Assembly: GCF_009914755.1 (NCBI RefSeq)
Contig: NC_060934.1
Strand: one strand, 5' to 3'
Source: the human T2T-CHM13v2.0 reference genome, Homo sapiens
Length of the DNA stretch: 64,000 nucleotides
In this document: piece after piece, positions 20,064 through 31,396 of the stretch
Layout of the letters: the number at the start of each line of letters is the position of its first letter
How positions within the stretch are numbered: position 1 is the stretch's first letter
Notes under the pieces: model-generated
Databases searched by the model: none
Seen by the model: only the letters and a program-made list of their open reading frames with translations
What the model was told of the DNA's origin: nothing
Translations under genes and position numbers: made by a program

Positions 20064-20151
20064 CGTTCTCCCGGGGAAGTACTTGGAAGAGATCGCCACA
20101 CAGATGCGCACGCACAGCATCAACGCGCTGCTGATCATCGGTGGATTCGAG
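20064..20151 (+). CDS. PFKP: PFKP exon 15 (88 nt)
   Basis: VLPGKYLEEIATQMRTHSINALLIIGGFE. Confidence 0.96.
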
Positions 20152-20601
20152 GTACGTTACCGTTTCTCTCTTGCCGGTCTTGCAGGTGTGAGCCGCGCCC
20201 TGTGTTGGCTAAACATTAAGTTACTTGTTGGCTACTGGCCACGATCCGAGATGATAGGTTCCCAGACCCAGCGGCCACTGGAGAATTGTAGAACAGCAGG
20301 ATAGCAGGTGGTAAGACGTGGCCTACGAGTGGCCCAGTTCCAGTAAAGCAACTTAACCGAGAAGCAAAAGCTTGACTCCTTAACCGGGCCTCATCTATTC
20401 AGTGAGCTCTTGTATTTCAGGCCTGTGGAAGTAATTCTATCTCTTGAGTCCAGAGTCCAGTGGCTACTTAGAGACTAAGGTAGTTATACCTAGAATTTTG
20501 TTTAAAATCACATATTGGACTGTAGACCCTAATATTTTTTCTATTCATGAAGATTAGTCTCATGGTAACCTTTCCATTTACTTTTAGAAAAAGTAAAAAC
20601 T

Positions 20602-20897
<296 letters not shown>

Positions 20898-21163
20898 AGT
20901 AAGAACCTCAGAAATGAGACTCTTACCCATGAGAGGTTTAGTCATCTAACCGATCATGTCTGTCCTGCGCCCTTTGTGCTTACAACCTGCCGATCCTTGT
21001 CTGTGGTCTTAAGGCAACTGTGTGTTGATCTCGGAGTGTTTTCGTGATGCCCCAGTGTGCTCCCTGCGTGCTGTGGTGGAGGTGGCGCTCCCAGCCTCTC
21101 CCAGCGAGACCCCCTCCTCCCCAGCTTCCCTCTCGCCCCACAACTCCCACGCTTGTCTGACAG

Positions 21164-21316
21164 GCCTACCTGGGACTCCTGGAGCTGTCAGCCGCCCGGG
21201 AGAAGCACGAGGAGTTCTGTGTCCCCATGGTCATGGTTCCCGCTACTGTGTCCAACAATGTGCCGGGTTCCGATTTCAGCATCGGGGCAGACACCGCCCT
21301 GAACACTATCACCGAC
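21164..21316 (+). CDS. PFKP: PFKP exon 16 (canonical, '16a', 153 nt)
   Basis: [51 protein letters not shown]; cag|...|gtaag. Confidence 0.97.
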
Positions 21317-21641
21317 GTAAGTCCGTGTGCGCCCTGCCAGGCGGGCGCCGGCTGACGCTAACCCCGGGGCCCCGGCCCTTTTTATCTACCAGTGCGCTAG
21401 AAATAGCCTTTTACAAATACCCTGAATGAGAGCTTCTCGTTCTTTTTTTCCCCCAGAAAAGTATGTTTTAAGACTCTGAAAATTTTTGATCTCACTCCCA
21501 GAAAGTTTTACCACCTCTTCTTCTGTGTGGCCACCAGGGGGACGTAGTGTGGCCGAGACTCCAGGGGTGCCCGTGAGCACCCGAGGCGCTGAGGAGGGCT
21601 GGGTCGCAGTCTCCTGTGATTGTACCAGCATTAAAAATCAC

Positions 21642-21643
<2 letters not shown>

Positions 21644-21673
<30 letters not shown>
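21644..21673. repeat. (TG)n microsatellite
   Basis: pure TG array. Confidence 0.9.
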
Positions 21674-21676
<3 letters not shown>

Positions 21677-21925
21677 AGCCTAAATTTTCTTTGAGCCTCC
21701 AATACCCATTATGATGAACCCCTGCCTTGATGCTGAGGGTAGAAATTGAATTGAATATTTTATAATTTTATTCATTGCCCTGAATGCACCATTGCATTTG
21801 TTATCTCTCTGGTCTTGGCTGTTGACCTCATTTTCCCCTTTGTAAACTGGGGATGTTAAATTACCTCTAAGGCAATAATTGGTGCTACTTTAGTTTTTTT
21901 GCCAAGAGACAATAATAAAACATAG

Positions 21926-22159
<234 letters not shown>

Positions 22160-23061
22160 TGAAGATCCGTACCTAACACAGAAAGCATTTCATTTTTTAA
22201 AAATTTGATGTCTAAAAGTTTGTAGTAATTCTCAAGTTTTAATTTTTCTTGTGAGACTTGGTTCTCATGAATATTTTTCAAAGATATTTTTTCTTGTAAA
22301 ACCTTGGCATGAAACTTATTTCTAGCACTGGTAAATAAAAAAAACAAGCTTTTAACATACAGCTCATATGGTAAGTAATGCTTAGCACTCGTTTCTTGCT
22401 TTTCTGAGCGTTTTAAACTTTCTTCACTTTCTTTGCGAAGGAAACCTGCCCAGGTTTTCCTGTGTTCACTGGCTTTGGGGGCAACTTTCACCTTATTTTT
22501 GGCAGTTGCTAATCTCTGACCTAGACGTTGCTTCTGTTCTCCTGGTGGTGGGTGTCACGGCTTTGCTGCTGCGGGGCTGGCCCGGCTCTGGACCGACCTT
22601 CGCACTGTGAATGTGAAGATGAGCCTCTTTCACAGACTGGATTCCGTCATTGCTTTCACTGCTCTTTCGCCTGCTTTAGCTAGATTTTTGGGTCTGTGAA
22701 AGTTGGGTGTGCAATGGGAGGGACTGAAGCTTCTTTTTTCCCTAATTGTTACCTAATTGGAACTCGCCCAGAGGGAACGGGTGGAGAATTTGAGAGCGGT
22801 CGCTGCAGTTAGCTGAGTTTCTTTTTAATTCCAGGGTCCTCTGCTATAAATGTTTTTTTTTTTTTTTTTTTCAGATTGTAAATATGTAACAAATGCATAG
22901 GGTCAAATTTATGAAAACCAAAATACGTGGGGCAAAAACACCCCACAAATGATCATTTCCACCTGCTTTTACTTCCCTTGGAGGGATTGTGTGATTTATT
23001 ATGCGATTGTTTTAAATGCAGTTTTTCATTCATTCGAGTTTCTCGAAGCTAGGTTAAACAA

Positions 23062-23073
23062 TTTCTTTTTTTT

Positions 23074-23108
<35 letters not shown>

Positions 23109-23389
23109 GAGACAGGGCCTCACTCTGTTTCCCAGGCTGGAATGCAGTGCTGCAATCGCTATTCACTGCAGCCTCGACCTCCCAGGCTTAGGTGATCCTC
23201 CCACCTCAGCCTCCTGAGTAGCTGGGACTACAGGTGGGTGCCACCGTGCCCAGCTAATTTTTTGTATTTCTATAGAGACGGGGTCTCCCTGTGTTGCCCA
23301 GGCTGGTTTCAAAACGTCTGGGCTCAAGCAATCCCCGTCTTGGGCTCTCAAACCACAGGGGTTACAGGGATGAGCCACCGCGCCGGGCC
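23062..23389 (-). mobile_element. AluJ, antisense, long T tract
   Basis: Alu consensus similarity. Confidence 0.88.
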
Positions 23390-25271: not shown

Positions 25272-26364
25272 ACCCGCCCCACCCTCCTATCCACCATGCT
25301 GTGAACTCACCTGCCACGGGTCTACACCCACTGTCCGAAGCCCTCGGCCCACACGGGCTCCAGGCCTTGGGATGCTTTGCGTTGCACCAGGGCTGCAGAG
25401 TCCAGATCGCTCACTGTCCGACTCTCCCAGGGAGGTGTGGGCGCCGCCCTGTGTCCCACCAGTAGCATTTCTGCAGCAGATGTGGGGATATTCACAGTAA
25501 GACGGACACGTCCAAGACCATAAATAGTTGGTTTTGCCACCACGTGGATGTCAAAAACACCTTGCTGTGTGGGGCCACTTGGAGGTGGGAACAGTGGGCG
25601 TGTGGACCTGTCCTGCTGTGACTTTGGTTAACACCCTGAGGTGGAGTCTGAAAAACCCCGGTGTACACGGGCTCAAGAACCGCTCCCCTTTCTGATACCG
25701 GAGCGCATTTCCCAGTGGAACCCCAGAGCAGCAACTCAGGTTCTTGCTCGCCTGTGCGGCTTTGTGTGCGGCTTGCCGAGGGCAGAAACGGCAGCTTCCG
25801 CCCGGAGAGCAGAGATGTGGCGTGGGGCTGAGTGTGGCCCACCGGTAATCCAGCTGCATGCCCCCTTCCCTGCCTGCACCTGGGCGCCGCCTCTGCACGA
25901 TGAAGGCAGGCATTTGGTGTGGTCCTTACAGCCGTGTGCCCCATCCCACTGATCCTTGCCTGCCTGCAGAAAGCTACAGGATTGGCTTTGCCTTTAAGTG
26001 TCCTGACTGCCCTGGCCTCCCTTACCTACCATGACACGCCGAGAGCTGAGCTGTCCCACTCGTGACTAACTCGCCGTTGCCTGCAACCTGCTCCGTTGCC
26101 TGCCTCACACCCACCCCGCTGTGCTGCCTGCAGGCACCCCCTTTCATGAGGACCTGGGCTGTGCCCAGGCGGCCCCCTGTGTTGCTGGGGCCTGTGCTGC
26201 TCTCGCACGGCCTCCAGAGCCTCCCTCGGCCCCTTGACCCGCATGAACCGGCTTCCCCTGGTGACTCAGTCCCCTCCCGTCCCTTCCTGGACCTCAGCAC
26301 AGGCCCTGGGGCTGGCAGGTGAGCACCCGGCACCCCCGCTAACCGCTTGGCCCTGCTGCTTCAG

Positions 26365-26517
26365 GCTTACAAGAGTGCGTGCGACATGGCCGAGGCACGA
26401 GGCCGCCACCAGGAGCTTTGCATCCCCCTGTGTGTGGTGCCGGCCACGATTAGCAACAATGTCCCAGGCACAGAAATAAGCCTGGGCTCCGACACTGGCC
26501 TGAATGCTGTTGTTGAG
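26365..26517 (+). CDS. PFKP: Paralogous alternative PFKP exon '16b' (153 nt), candidate mutually exclusive exon
   Basis: GCTAAC branch motif 26338-26343, ttcag acceptor, GAG|gtaaga donor; open frame [51 protein letters not shown], gap-free 24/51 identity to exon 16a. Confidence 0.88.
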
Positions 26518-29500
26518 GTAAGAGAACCCCGTTTCCTCCCGTTGCTTTTCCGTCATTTATTTTAGCAACTTGTTTCTTCTGTGCTAAGGATGAGCCGGAT
26601 TTATTCTTCTTTTCTCCCCTTTGTTAGCTTGGCTTTATGTCACACTGGCCAGAACAGGGTAAAATTTTTTTAGCTTCTCTGCCTTAGGGAGAGCCTGTCT
26701 TTATTGATTAAAAGTGAGATGATATATCCAGTCCTTGGGATCGTGTTTCTATCCCACCTAGACTAGGGGAGCCGCAGGTACCATTGCTCTGGAGGCTGCC
26801 TCTCCTGCCCACGCTGAGTAGTGAGGCTGCAGGGCCAGCTGTGGGAGCCTGCAGGAAGGGGTGTAAATGCCCGGTAAGTACGAGCTCCAGGACAGAGCCG
26901 TACCCACTGGGGGCCGCTGCCTGGAAAACAGCCTTCCTGGTGAGACAAGAGGCTCTTTAGAGAGCCGAAATCACACCCTCCTGGGCAGGCGGTTTCACCA
27001 ACATGTGCCTTGGGAGGGGTGGATTCTGCCAGTCGTGGGTGTGGTGCTGACACCCGCATGGTGGCCCCTCCGGTCCCTGATACTCTGACCTACCTCTATG
27101 GTCATAAGCTGGACATGAAGACCTATGGTAGTTCCACAGGCCTTTGCTGCAGAGACGGTCCTCACTCAGCTGCAGACAGGACGGTGGCCACCGTGACATG
27201 TGGGGTCACGTCCGTGACTTGGCCACCTGGTGCGAGGGACCCACAGCAAAGCAGAACTGCTGGCCGGGGTAGGCCTGCATCGCGTGCGGGGACAGCAGCC
27301 ACTGGCCTTTACCTTACATCTTGACGTCCAAGCCAGCTCCGGAGTTTGCAGTGAAAACTCCCAGCCCTGCTGGAGACTCCTTAGTTCAGCTTAGCACAGA
27401 ACCTCGGAAGACAGCAGTTCTATTCCGGGTACTTCCTTCAGAGCTGAGTTACAGTGCAGGGAAGGGAGCAGAGGAGCCATGAGGTCGGCTGCAGCTTCCT
27501 GTGCGTCCGAGCCTCAGCCTCCCACTCGAGCTGAGGGGCGTGTCCTGGCCATCTCTCTCCTGGGCTTCTCCCTGTGTTCCCCAGTGCTGTGGTGGTCTTG
27601 CAGAGGCTGGCCCTGGCTCATTCCCAGGACTTCCTTGGGCCCCGCACTTGACCCCTGTTGGGTGAATGCCATTAGGGTCCGGCCATCGCTGGCTTCACTC
27701 TCCTTTAGCACCTTGTAGATGTCCATGCACACTTCCACCCTCGCGCCCCACACGCGACGCAGCCCTACCCTGGCCAGCAGCTGTGCTTTGCTGCGGGTTC
27801 CTTGCTGTAGCAGGGACAGGACCCCCACCCCCTGTCCCGTCTGGCCACCGACTTCAGCAGAGGCTCGGCTGCCGTGAGGGATACCAGTCATGGGAAAACT
27901 GGCCTCCCTGCAGATTCACAGAGCAAGGTGGTTCTCACAGAGAAGTCAGTGGCTTTTTTCTACGTTAATGCTGTAGCAAACGCCACCTTTTCTTTCACCA
28001 CCAATTTATATTTCTTAACACCCATGGAGCAAAGTGTGGTGATGTTTGAACTGTAGCCTGGGGCTCTCGCTCCCATGGGACTCCTCGGGGAATTTCCCAG
28101 CAGCAGGATCGCCTCTGTGTCCTTGCAGGGGGTGGCGTCTGCTGGGGGCACATCCCATCGTGCAGGGGGAACGGCTGAGGTCACAGGCTTTGCCTGACAA
28201 GTGCCACTCACAGCTGCTGTCCACGTGCCAGCCCTGGGACACAGCCCTCTGCCATCCTTCCACCCACTCGGAGGCCAGGGAGGCACCTCCGTGCCACACT
28301 GCAGGCAGGCAGGGCCGCGCTTGGGATCTGCCGCCTTCTTGTCAGTGCTGCTTTGACTAATTGCCTGAGGCACGGCCGGAGTGACTTGCTATTTTTAGAA
28401 GCTAATTCAGGCTTCAGATGCCATCTAGGTAATGAGGAGAGAGTTCAGGAAAGCTGTATCTAAGCTCCAGCAAAGGCGGCCTCTTCCGTACCAGCTGTCG
28501 CTGCGTTTACACTGAGACGAGCACACAGTCGGGGGCGTGGCTCAGGTGTCAGGGCTGCGCTGTTCCACAGCCCCCTGGGGCAGCCTGGCGGGACCAGAAC
28601 TCAGACACGCCTGGGCACAAATCAGCCTCTTGGGAGAGCTGCTTTGCCCGCAGAATTCTTTTGCCATTAAGCGGTTGATGTCATTCTTTGAATGAGTGAC
28701 AGTAATTCCCCACCTCAGGGTGGGCTGCGGGGGAGATTCAGTTGGAAAAGTAACCCATGAGGTTTTGTGCCTCTGGGGGTCCTGAGGCCCCACCCGTGCC
28801 TGGGATTCTCTAAGACAAAGGACAAGTCTTAAAGCCTTACAGCATCTTAAGTCTTAGATCACATTTAGAGAGACCCGGTACAGGTGGAACAGTGCAACCC
28901 TCAGAATTCTGCACTGGCCCTTCAAGAAGGCAGTTGTGGGCTCTTTGGACCCTTGACGGGGATCTGTCCTCTGTCCTCCTAAGCACAAAGATGGGAATTC
29001 TTCCCATTGCCTGTTTCTCTCCCCATCTCGGCTTCTACACAATGCAAAGTGGCCCGCTAACTAGAGTCCGTGTTCAGTTTTGAATACATCAACCAATTAT
29101 TTTGGGAAGAAAAGAATCTGCCAAAGAAACTGGAAATACAGTTTGGAATCATTTAATCAAGCCTGCATTTATTAATCAAAGTGCACTTTTAGATTTCATC
29201 CGAAGTGCTCAAGTGAACATTTCCCAATGGGTGTTAAACTTGGGTGCACAGACTCTCACGTGGCTCCTAGTCTCAAGTCCACACCCCACTTCATGCTCTT
29301 ACTCTTGGCTGAGTCCCATGGAGGCCCGTTAGGGAATCCTGCAGGATCAGCCGTTGACCAGGACGGACGGACGGCTGGCTGGGGAATACCATGCTTATGT
29401 CATTCAGAGACAAGCATTTCTTGAGCGCCTGCTGTGGGGGCTCGGCCGGGTGCTGCTGATGGTGCACTGGTGTAAGCCCAGCCCACAGTTCCTGTCCTCA

Positions 29501-31081: not shown

Positions 31082-31396
<315 letters not shown>

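What the first reader, a model, noticed from the sequence alone, without database searches (positions are those of the whole stretch)
26365..26517. Second copy of PFKP exon 16: candidate mutually exclusive exon that swaps the allosteric-site segment
Seen in the sequence: a 153-nt phase-0/phase-0 exon in intron 16, the same length as canonical exon 16 (21164-21316). It has no stops or gaps, a GCTAAC branch motif about 23 nt upstream of a ttcag acceptor, and a GAG|gtaaga donor. The peptides align without gaps at 24/51 identity: [51 protein letters not shown] versus [51 protein letters not shown]. The core PAT[V/I]SNNVPG is kept while several of its codons differ synonymously and many other changes are conservative (V/I, D/E, S/T, I/L), which points to an old duplication under purifying selection rather than decay. 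Established knowledge: this exon encodes about aa 511-561; TVSNN (538-542) is part of the fructose-2,6-bisphosphate activator site, and S540 corresponds to the PFK1 O-GlcNAc site. Inference: a PKM1/PKM2-like exon switch could produce a PFKP isozyme with different allosteric, oligomerisation or redox behaviour (16b has three Cys versus one). I cannot check whether this exon is already in a minor annotated transcript, and I know of no functional characterisation.
Basis: partly seen in the sequence, partly recalled or inferred. Interest (0 to 1): 0.92.

Follow-up and report, generated by a model that had tools for sequence, protein, structure and literature searches.

The report
Known alternative exon 16b of PFKP
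This is a real, very old second copy of exon 16 of the human glycolysis gene PFKP that can replace the usual copy, but it is already annotated and has been described in print, so it is not a discovery.

Summary
Window 26365-26517 is an open 153-nt, phase-0 exon with AG/GT splice sites, the same length as exon 16 (21164-21316). The two peptides match at 24/51 residues without gaps.

It is not new. The hub table lists it as an exon of another RefSeq PFKP transcript. Lam et al. (bioRxiv 2018; PLoS Comput Biol 2021) describe this PFKP mutually exclusive pair, V539I beside the allosteric site, and the PKM analogy. My searches found no experimental characterisation.

What I add:
- The a-then-b exon pair occurs in PFKP models from elephant shark, sturgeon, bowfin, teleosts, amphibians, turtles, alligator, birds, squamates, marsupials and placentals, so it dates at least to the jawed-vertebrate ancestor.
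- 16b keeps the [10 protein letters not shown] core also seen in PFKL and non-vertebrate PFKs. 16a shares [10 protein letters not shown] with PFKM.
- In ray-finned fish the two copies evolve equally fast. In mammals 16b changes 6.7 times faster. Within primates neutrality cannot be excluded.
- Both exons are multiples of three, so double inclusion stays in frame, unlike PKM.
- PFKP is absent from a published table of events with peptide support for both forms.

Verdict: already known, low interest. Whether human 16b is functionally relevant remains open.

The parts
26365..26517 (+). PFKP exon 16b, the alternative copy (51 codons, phase 0/0)
   Evidence: Open frame. Listed among exons of other RefSeq transcripts in the hub table. 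Orthologous segments occur in vertebrate PFKP models.
21164..21316 (+). PFKP exon 16a, the canonical copy (51 codons, residues 511-561)
   Evidence: Hub table, NM_002627.5. 24/51 identical to 16b.
26338..26343 (+). GCTAAC branch-point-like motif, A at 26342, 23 nt before the exon
   Evidence: Read directly. Function inferred from consensus only.
26344..26364 (+). Pyrimidine-rich tract and AG acceptor of 16b (cgcttggccctgctgcttcag)
26518..26523 (+). Donor site GTAAGA of 16b
   Evidence: It matches 7 of 9 positions of the recalled MAG|GURAGU consensus, the same count as 16a's GAC|GTAAGT.
20064..20151 (+). Exon 15, upstream constitutive exon joined to either 16a or 16b
   Evidence: Hub table. A langur b-only isoform (P0019) reads ...IIGGFE|AYKSAC... 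and maps exon by exon onto the window.
31100..31264 (+). Exon 17, downstream constitutive exon (starts TCDRIKQ)
   Evidence: P0019 continues ...[11 protein letters not shown].

Best explanation
Window 26365-26517 is exon 16b of PFKP, the tandem-duplicated partner of exon 16a.

Shown:
- It has the same length and phase as 16a and has canonical splice sites.
- It is already annotated.
- Natural b-only protein models exist in which it exactly replaces residues 511-561.
- The a-then-b exon pair is present in PFKP from cartilaginous fish to mammals.

The segment is the regulatory-half counterpart of the bacterial catalytic TIDND loop. It carries T[V/I]SNN with Ser540, which aligns with PFKL Ser529. 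The effector-site role of this loop is recalled knowledge plus Lam et al.

Inferred mechanism: choosing 16b keeps the invariant core (R522, C529, P536-A-T, S540-N-N, G545, G551-D-T, N557). It swaps a fixed set of neighbouring residues: V539I, S546T, V533C, V535L, T560V, D561E and the surface of helix 511-527. This gives PFKP a pocket for its sugar-bisphosphate activator of the type seen in PFKL and in non-vertebrate PFKs, and so probably a different activator affinity or allosteric coupling.

In humans it is most likely a minor isoform. Its constraint weakened in mammals, and its physiological importance in man is uncertain. I put a real kinetic role in humans at about 0.4.
For: Sequence and homology:
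- Anatomy as described.
- The genome-wide search finds only 16b, the PFKL exon (65% identity), 16a (48%) and the PFKM exon (51%).

Annotation and literature:
- The hub table lists the exon in another RefSeq transcript.
- Lam et al. describe PFKP-203 versus PFKP-205 as mutually exclusive and place V539I near the FBP effector site of PDB 4XZ2 (passages).
- Martinez-Gomez 2022 cites the event.

Protein models in other species:
- The search with the 16b peptide gave 71 hits with E<=0.001 among 76 candidates.
- Among the named PFKP models, 28 carry b in place of a and 16 carry a followed by b (my count).
- P0019 shows the clean substitution.
- Two further searches each listed the best 120 hits. All rows shown with a name or origin are PFKP-type models with a then b, except one fluke model. 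They cover teleosts, bowfin, sturgeon, elephant shark, frogs, a salamander, turtles, alligator, birds, squamates, marsupials and placentals.
- 176 of 233 stored proteins with a recognisable segment are a+b.

Constraint:
- Columns 522, 529, 533, 538, 540-542, 545, 551 and 553 never vary in any of the 31 b copies compared, and 536, 537, 544, 554 and 557 vary in only one or two.
- Observed identity of human 16b to marsupial (30-37/51), turtle (34), bowfin (30) and shark (27) copies exceeds every one of 5000 neutral simulations at d=0.8 (maximum 24).
Against: - No RNA-seq, ribosome or peptide data could be examined here.
- PFKP is absent from Table S2 of Martinez-Gomez 2022, which lists the 81 events with peptide support for both forms.
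- In mammals 16b differs on average at 17.7 of 51 positions between species, against 2.7 for 16a.
- Some mammalian copies alter core residues: seals ISNS, mustelids PTT, porcupine AATLSNN, macaque PFKP-like fragments LATINNN.
- Human versus squirrel monkey identity (46/51) equals the 95th percentile of neutral drift at d=0.1, so neutrality in primates is not excluded.
- Many gene models include both exons, so exclusivity is not strict at the level of annotation. Double inclusion is in frame and so would not, as far as I can see, be removed by nonsense-mediated decay.
- The only published functional argument is a computed affinity change (mCSM-lig).
Confidence: 0.75

Rival explanations
1. Relic exon in humans. 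16b was a working alternative exon in early vertebrates, but in mammals, and especially primates, it is drifting. It is still spliced at a low level and annotated, but makes no physiologically meaningful protein.
For: - The rate ratio of b to a rises from 0.9 in ray-finned fish to 2.3 in sauropsids and 6.7 in mammals.
- Human 16b has lost the b-type residues E513, Q517 and L535.
- Core changes occur in several mammals.
- Primate divergence is compatible with neutrality.
- There is no entry in the peptide-supported table.
Against: - The frame is intact and the core [11 protein letters not shown], C529, C533 and GxDT are kept in 9 to 11 of 11 mammals compared.
- Identities between human and other placentals are 28-37/51. 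Neutral drift at d=0.35 gives a mean of 25 and a 99.9th percentile of 35 (the neutral distance is assumed, not measured).
- Only species with an annotated intact exon could be seen, so this sample is biased towards intact copies.
Confidence: 0.35
2. An ordinary cassette exon rather than a mutually exclusive partner. 16b is mainly added after 16a, giving a protein of about 835-845 aa with the segment duplicated.
For: - 176 of 233 stored models carry a then b.
- Both exons are 153 nt, so the tandem form stays in frame.
Against: - Searches 18 and 20 rank by summed score and therefore favour tandem models, and many are automatic predictions.
- 28 named models have b alone.
- Lam et al. list the human pair as mutually exclusive.
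- Duplicating a buried strand-loop-helix of the fold would probably not give a working enzyme (inference).
Confidence: 0.1
3. 16b is the TDP-43-repressed 'cryptic exon' of PFKP that the ALS/FTD literature places in intron 16.
For: - PMC9509890 states that the cryptic exon lies within intron 16 of PFKP-203 (passage), which is the intron that holds 16b.
- A figure legend in PMC12297563 says the PFKP cryptic exon shows tissue-specific enrichment in GTEx.
- 16b contains a short (TG)4 at 26429-26436.
Against: - The only long UG repeat in the intron, (TG)15, is at 21644-21673, 4.7 kb upstream of 16b.
- Next to that repeat is a candidate exon with an in-frame stop. This fits the reported more-than-2-fold fall of PFKP mRNA. 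16b is in frame and stop-free.
- The authors call cryptic exons non-conserved, whereas 16b is conserved back to sharks.
- I saw no coordinates.
Confidence: 0.03

Closest known systems
Published PFKP mutually exclusive pair PFKP-203 / PFKP-205 (Lam et al., bioRxiv 10.1101/292813 and PLoS Comput Biol 2021, PMC7954323)
   Same: Same gene, and the same V to I change at residue 539, which matches position 29 of the two exons here. I take it to be the same event.
   Different: Nothing structural. The papers give no evolutionary depth, rate analysis or paralogue comparison in the passages I saw, and no experiment.
PKM exons 9/10 (PKM1/PKM2)
   Same: A glycolytic, allosterically regulated enzyme in which two homologous neighbouring exons of equal length swap a segment touching the sugar-bisphosphate effector site. 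Lam et al. draw the analogy.
   Different: - PKM's exons are, from recall, 167 nt, so double inclusion shifts the frame. PFKP's are 153 nt and stay in frame.
- PKM is listed with peptide support and tissue specificity; PFKP is not.
- PKM isoform kinetics are established. PFKP 16b has no assay that I could find.
PFKL exon at G000 C21:42677823-42677975 (P0243)
   Same: It is the closest relative of human 16b by sequence: 33/51 identical, against 24/51 for 16a and 25/51 for PFKM. It shares I539, T546, C533, E513, Q517 and E561. It is also the best PDB hit, PFKL 7lw1 at 71.8 bits against PFKP at 60.
   Different: It is a constitutive single exon in another gene. No second copy was found in PFKL or PFKM. 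The likeness may be shared ancestral states: outgroups average 31.1 and 30.5 identities to turtle b and PFKL, against 28.3 and 27.8 to turtle a and PFKM. The shark b copy is closer to shark a (34) than to PFKL (31).
Drosophila Pfk tandem-exon substitution
   Same: The same enzyme family also uses duplicated alternative exons.
   Different: Martinez-Gomez 2022 Table S5 files it under 'different region, convergent'.

Membership tests
Homologous mutually exclusive (tandem duplicated) exon pair | Two neighbouring exons of one gene with detectable homology | tested here: met
   24/51 identity, E 9e-22. Both lie between exons 15 and 17 (hub table).
Homologous mutually exclusive (tandem duplicated) exon pair | Same length and same phase, so that either one keeps the frame | tested here: met
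   Both are 153 nt and open in frame 1. P0019 shows the exact substitution.
Homologous mutually exclusive (tandem duplicated) exon pair | Transcripts contain one or the other, not both or neither | tested here: inconclusive
   The human pair is published as mutually exclusive. 28 named models carry b alone, but 16 and 176 of 233 stored models overall carry both. No read data were available.
Homologous mutually exclusive (tandem duplicated) exon pair | Conserved as a pair in other species | tested here: met
   The a-then-b pair is present from elephant shark to mammals.
PKM1/PKM2-type allosteric isoform switch | The two isoforms differ measurably in effector response or oligomer state | not testable with these tools
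   Only a computed affinity change is in print. Searches found no assay.
PKM1/PKM2-type allosteric isoform switch | Regulated, tissue-specific choice with both proteins detected | not tested
   PFKP is absent from the table of 81 peptide-supported events. No expression data were seen.
PKM1/PKM2-type allosteric isoform switch | Double inclusion breaks the reading frame | tested here: not met
   153 + 153 nt stays in frame. The PKM exon length is recalled.
TDP-43-repressed cryptic exon | Non-conserved intronic exon flanked by a UG repeat, usually bringing a premature stop | tested here: not met
   16b is conserved to sharks and stop-free. The nearest long UG repeat is 4.7 kb away.

The most novel reading that the evidence does not exclude
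The a/b exon duplication is older than the split between PFKP and PFKM, that is, it predates at least one of the early vertebrate genome duplications. On this reading PFKM later kept only the derived a-type exon, PFKL carries only the ancestral b-like type, and PFKP alone still chooses between them. Part of the difference between muscle-type and liver-type effector sites would then be a frozen splice choice.

Support: the PFKM exon falls inside the 16a clade (97/89, starred).

Against: the AU test does not reject 16a and 16b as one clade (p 0.353). There are only 51 columns, one PFKM sequence, and that sequence sits on a long branch.
Probability: 0.3. Interest if true: 0.5.

Novelty: already known. 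Interest (0 to 1): 0.22.

Why it matters
PFKP sets glycolytic flux in many proliferating, tumour and neural cells. An isoform with a different activator pocket could matter for cancer and neuronal metabolism. That idea is already in print, so the finding adds no new object.

The useful points from this check are practical:
- The exon is ancient, but its constraint has loosened in mammals. A human function should be shown, not assumed.
- Fish, frog or turtle PFKP, where 16b is as conserved as 16a, may be the better place to find out what the switch does.
- Anyone counting junctions in this intron must keep 16b apart from the TDP-43 cryptic exon used as a disease marker.

Tried and rejected
Chance ORF or pseudo-exon: rejected.

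16b as a recent copy of the PFKL exon: rejected. The pair exists in sharks and fish, and codon usage differs at 15 of 24 shared residues.

Relics of a second copy in PFKL or PFKM: none at E<=10. After this much time, absence says little.

Tree of 76 segments over 51 columns: the b copies form an unresolved comb mixed with outgroups, and the bootstrap had not settled (0.977).

AU test of a+b as one clade: not rejected. The pre-split origin therefore stays open.

Competing intron base-pairing that could enforce exclusivity:
- The repeat finder found 15 inverted pairs, mostly Alu, and no convincing docking/selector pair. The nearest is 20 nt at 80% between 25297-25316 and 26313-26332.
- No other species' DNA was available to test conservation.

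Literature:
- Hatje 2017: no PFKP in the main text or the 3 held supplements.
- Abascal 2015, both papers: none (one supplement file was not searched).
- The search for PFKP-205 / ENSP00000387871 / ENST00000407806 found only the Lam preprint.
- SETD2, salmon and cardiac-isoform papers mention PFK genes only at gene or paralogue level.
- The search for cryptic-exon coordinates found nothing.
Earlier findings were not open. The paper cap stopped two reads on PFK phylogeny.

Structure prediction and complex prediction were not run. A confident PFK fold was expected either way and would not discriminate between the readings.

Full report
**1. Observation**

- Window 26365-26517 is a 153-nt open frame. 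It is preceded by ...gctaaccgcttggccctgctgcttcag and followed by gtaaga.
- It translates to [51 protein letters not shown].
- Canonical exon 16 (21164-21316) has the same length and phase.
- BLASTP gives 24/51 identities, 39/51 positives, no gaps, E 9e-22.
- At DNA level 88/153 bases match. Of the 24 shared residues, 15 are written with different codons. Synonymous sites are therefore scrambled while the protein core is kept.
- Exon 17 begins TCDR.
- A six-frame search of the window's own genome finds four homologous places only: 16b itself, the PFKL exon on contig 21 (65% identity), 16a (48%) and the PFKM exon on contig 12 (51%).
- The reciprocal search with 16a gives PFKM 69%, PFKL 58%, 16b 48%, and one chance-level row at E 4.6.

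**2. It is already known**

- The hub's RefSeq table lists 26365-26517 among exons of other PFKP transcripts.
[quoted passage not shown] They call it a mutually exclusive exon event.
- They point to V to I at residue 539 next to the FBP effector site of PDB 4XZ2, report a computed (mCSM-lig) gain in affinity, and draw the parallel with PKM.
- Residue 539 is position 29 of the two exons here, so this is the same event.
- Martinez-Gomez et al. 2022 (PMC9741552) cite it in the text and list PFKP in a supplementary table against fly Pfk as 'different region, convergent'.
- Their Table S2 lists the 81 events with peptides for both forms. It does not contain PFKP.
- I found no experimental work on the isoform. 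These searches cover only the held open-access library. Supplements I could not open may hold expression or age data.

**3. How old is it**

The 16b peptide retrieved 71 proteins at E<=0.001 among 76 candidates.
- Among named PFKP models, 28 have a 16b-like segment in place of 16a and 16 have 16a followed by 16b (my count).
- The taxa are primates, horse, carnivores, squirrels, pikas, lemurs, an anteater, marsupials and one Antarctic fish.
- A langur isoform (P0019) reads ...IIGGFE|AYKSAC...[11 protein letters not shown]..., a clean swap.

Two further searches used a fish b-only isoform and a turtle tandem model.
- Each listed the best 120 of several thousand hits.
- All rows shown with a name or origin are PFKP-type models carrying a then b, except one fluke model.
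- They include teleosts (both pfkp paralogues), tarpon, eels, bowfin, sturgeons, frogs, a salamander, turtles, alligator, birds, lizards, geckos, a rattlesnake, opossum, dunnart, placentals and the elephant shark Callorhinchus (segments).
- The pair therefore goes back at least to the common ancestor of jawed vertebrates.

Caveats:
- These searches rank by summed score, so they favour tandem models.
- The database is clustered at 90% identity, so absence of a species (mouse, for example) means nothing.
- Only intact annotated exons can appear.

**4. Rates**

I compared 31 species with both segments.

| Group | Species | Mean pairwise differences per 51, 16a | 16b |
|---|---|---|---|
| Ray-finned fish | 10 | 8.4 | 7.2 |
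| Amphibians | 3 | 6.3 | 9.7 |
| Sauropsids | 6 | 2.8 | 6.4 |
| Mammals | 11 | 2.7 | 17.7 |

- Human 16a differs from turtle 16a at 2 positions. Human 16b differs from turtle 16b at 17.
- The core stays. Columns 522, 529, 533, 538, 540-542, 545, 551 and 553 never vary in any b copy compared, and 536, 537, 544, 554 and 557 vary in one or two.
- Helix 511-527 is rewritten in mammals. In primates it reads AYKSACDM, with an extra Cys.

Neutral simulations from the human exon gave these identities:
- At 0.35 substitutions per site: mean 25/51, 99.9th percentile 35.
- At 0.8 substitutions per site: mean 12/51, maximum 24.
- Observed: 28-37 for non-primate placentals, 30-37 for marsupials, 34 for turtle, 27 for shark.
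- Selection has therefore acted over most of the history. The neutral distances are my assumption, not a measurement.
- For squirrel monkey, 46/51 equals the 95th percentile at 0.1, so current constraint in primates is not shown.
- Several mammals alter core residues.

**5. Relation to the paralogues**

Type-defining positions held across jawed vertebrates, written a/b, are:

| Position | a | b |
|---|---|---|
| 513 | L | E |
| 517 | E | Q |
| 533 | V | C |
| 535 | V | L |
| 539 | V | I |
| 546 | S | T |
| 560 | T | V |
| 561 | D | E |

- PFKL shares the b state at 513, 517, 533, 539, 546 and 561. PFKM shares the a state at 517, 533, 539 and 546.
- Fungal, nematode, fluke and unlabelled non-vertebrate PFKs all read [10 protein letters not shown]. 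The b/PFKL state therefore looks ancestral and the a/PFKM state derived.
- In the tree of 76 segments, 16a plus PFKM is a starred clade (97/89) and PFKL is a clade (99/95). The b copies are an unresolved comb mixed with outgroups.
- The AU test does not reject 16a+16b as one clade (log-likelihood 7.5 lower, p 0.353).
- Shark b is nearer to shark a (34/51) than to PFKL (31/51).
- An origin before the PFKP/PFKM split is therefore possible but not shown.
- Flanking exons of the C-terminal half are also closer to PFKM: exon 17 is 90% versus 75% for PFKL, and the next is 80% versus 69%. Several N-half exons are closer to PFKL.

**6. Mechanism**

Shown: either exon fits between exons 15 and 17 in frame. 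The segment aligns with residues 117-147 of bacterial PFK, the region of the TIDND loop, and with TIDNDF of the N-terminal half. The Ser of TISNN aligns with PFKL Ser529, named as the PFK1 O-GlcNAc site in a review.

Inferred: the swap retunes the activator pocket and the surface of helix 511-527 without touching the residues that hold the fold.

Differences from PKM:
- Both PFKP exons are multiples of three. Double inclusion or double skipping is not removed by frame-dependent decay.
- Exclusivity must therefore be set at the splicing step. I found no convincing competing RNA pairing.

**7. The same intron holds a disease marker**

- PMC9509890 places the TDP-43-dependent PFKP cryptic exon 'within intron 16 of PFKP-203'.
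- The only long UG repeat in that intron is (TG)15 at 21644-21673.
- Just upstream lies a strong acceptor (ttcttttttt cccccag|AAAAGTATGTTTTAA, exon start 21457) with an in-frame stop at the fifth codon, and a GTGAG donor at 21573.
- This fits the reported loss of PFKP mRNA. It suggests the cryptic exon is there, about 4.8 kb upstream of 16b. I did not see coordinates.

**8. Verdict**

The reading of the exon as an ancient homologous alternative exon is supported. The functional switch is untested, and novelty is absent.

Noticed in passing
window 21644-21673 and 21457-21572: (TG)15 lies in intron 16, 330 nt after exon 16a. Just upstream is a candidate exon (acceptor cccccag|AAAAG at 21456/21457, GTGAG donor at 21573, 116 nt) with an in-frame TAA at its fifth codon. 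This probably corresponds to the TDP-43-repressed PFKP cryptic exon that the literature places in this intron. Published coordinates were not seen.
   Followed up: partly
window 20580-20905 versus 21913-22102 and 23053-23338: Inverted Alu-like repeats flank exon 16a (pairs I1-I3 and I5-I7, 73-80% complementary over 49-177 nt). Such pairs can favour skipping or back-splicing of the enclosed exon. They are primate-specific by nature, so they could bear on the 16a/16b choice in humans.
   Followed up: no
window 27232-27291 and 27746-27805: A 60-nt inverted repeat, 85% complementary, with arms 454 nt apart, lies in the intron between 16b and exon 17 (I4). It is not obviously Alu. Its meaning is unknown.
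   Followed up: no
P0004, P0042, P0044, P0045 (macaque 'PFKP-like' models): Short macaque proteins (119-353 aa) named PFKP-like carry a 16b copy. In P0004, the only one whose full segment was printed, the core is altered (VLATINNN instead of VPATISNN). This suggests a partial extra PFKP copy in macaques that is decaying.
   Followed up: no
P0074 (Paragonimus kellicotti, 977 aa): This model contains three identical copies of the exon-16-like segment (starts 505, 591, 706). It is probably an assembly or gene-model artefact rather than exon duplication.
   Followed up: no
P0207 (Puntigrus tetrazona, 803 aa): The model has a 16a segment followed by a second a-type segment that resembles the PFKM exon (ends NTITT) instead of a b copy. 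It may be a chimeric model, or a different exon history in this fish.
   Followed up: no
G000 contigs 10, 12, 21: Exon by exon, the PFKP N-terminal half is often closer to PFKL (for example 75% versus 70%, 72% versus 60%, 67% versus 56%). The C-terminal half is closer to PFKM (90% versus 75%, 80% versus 69%, 68% versus 54%). The comparison is rough because the aligned lengths differ.
   Followed up: no
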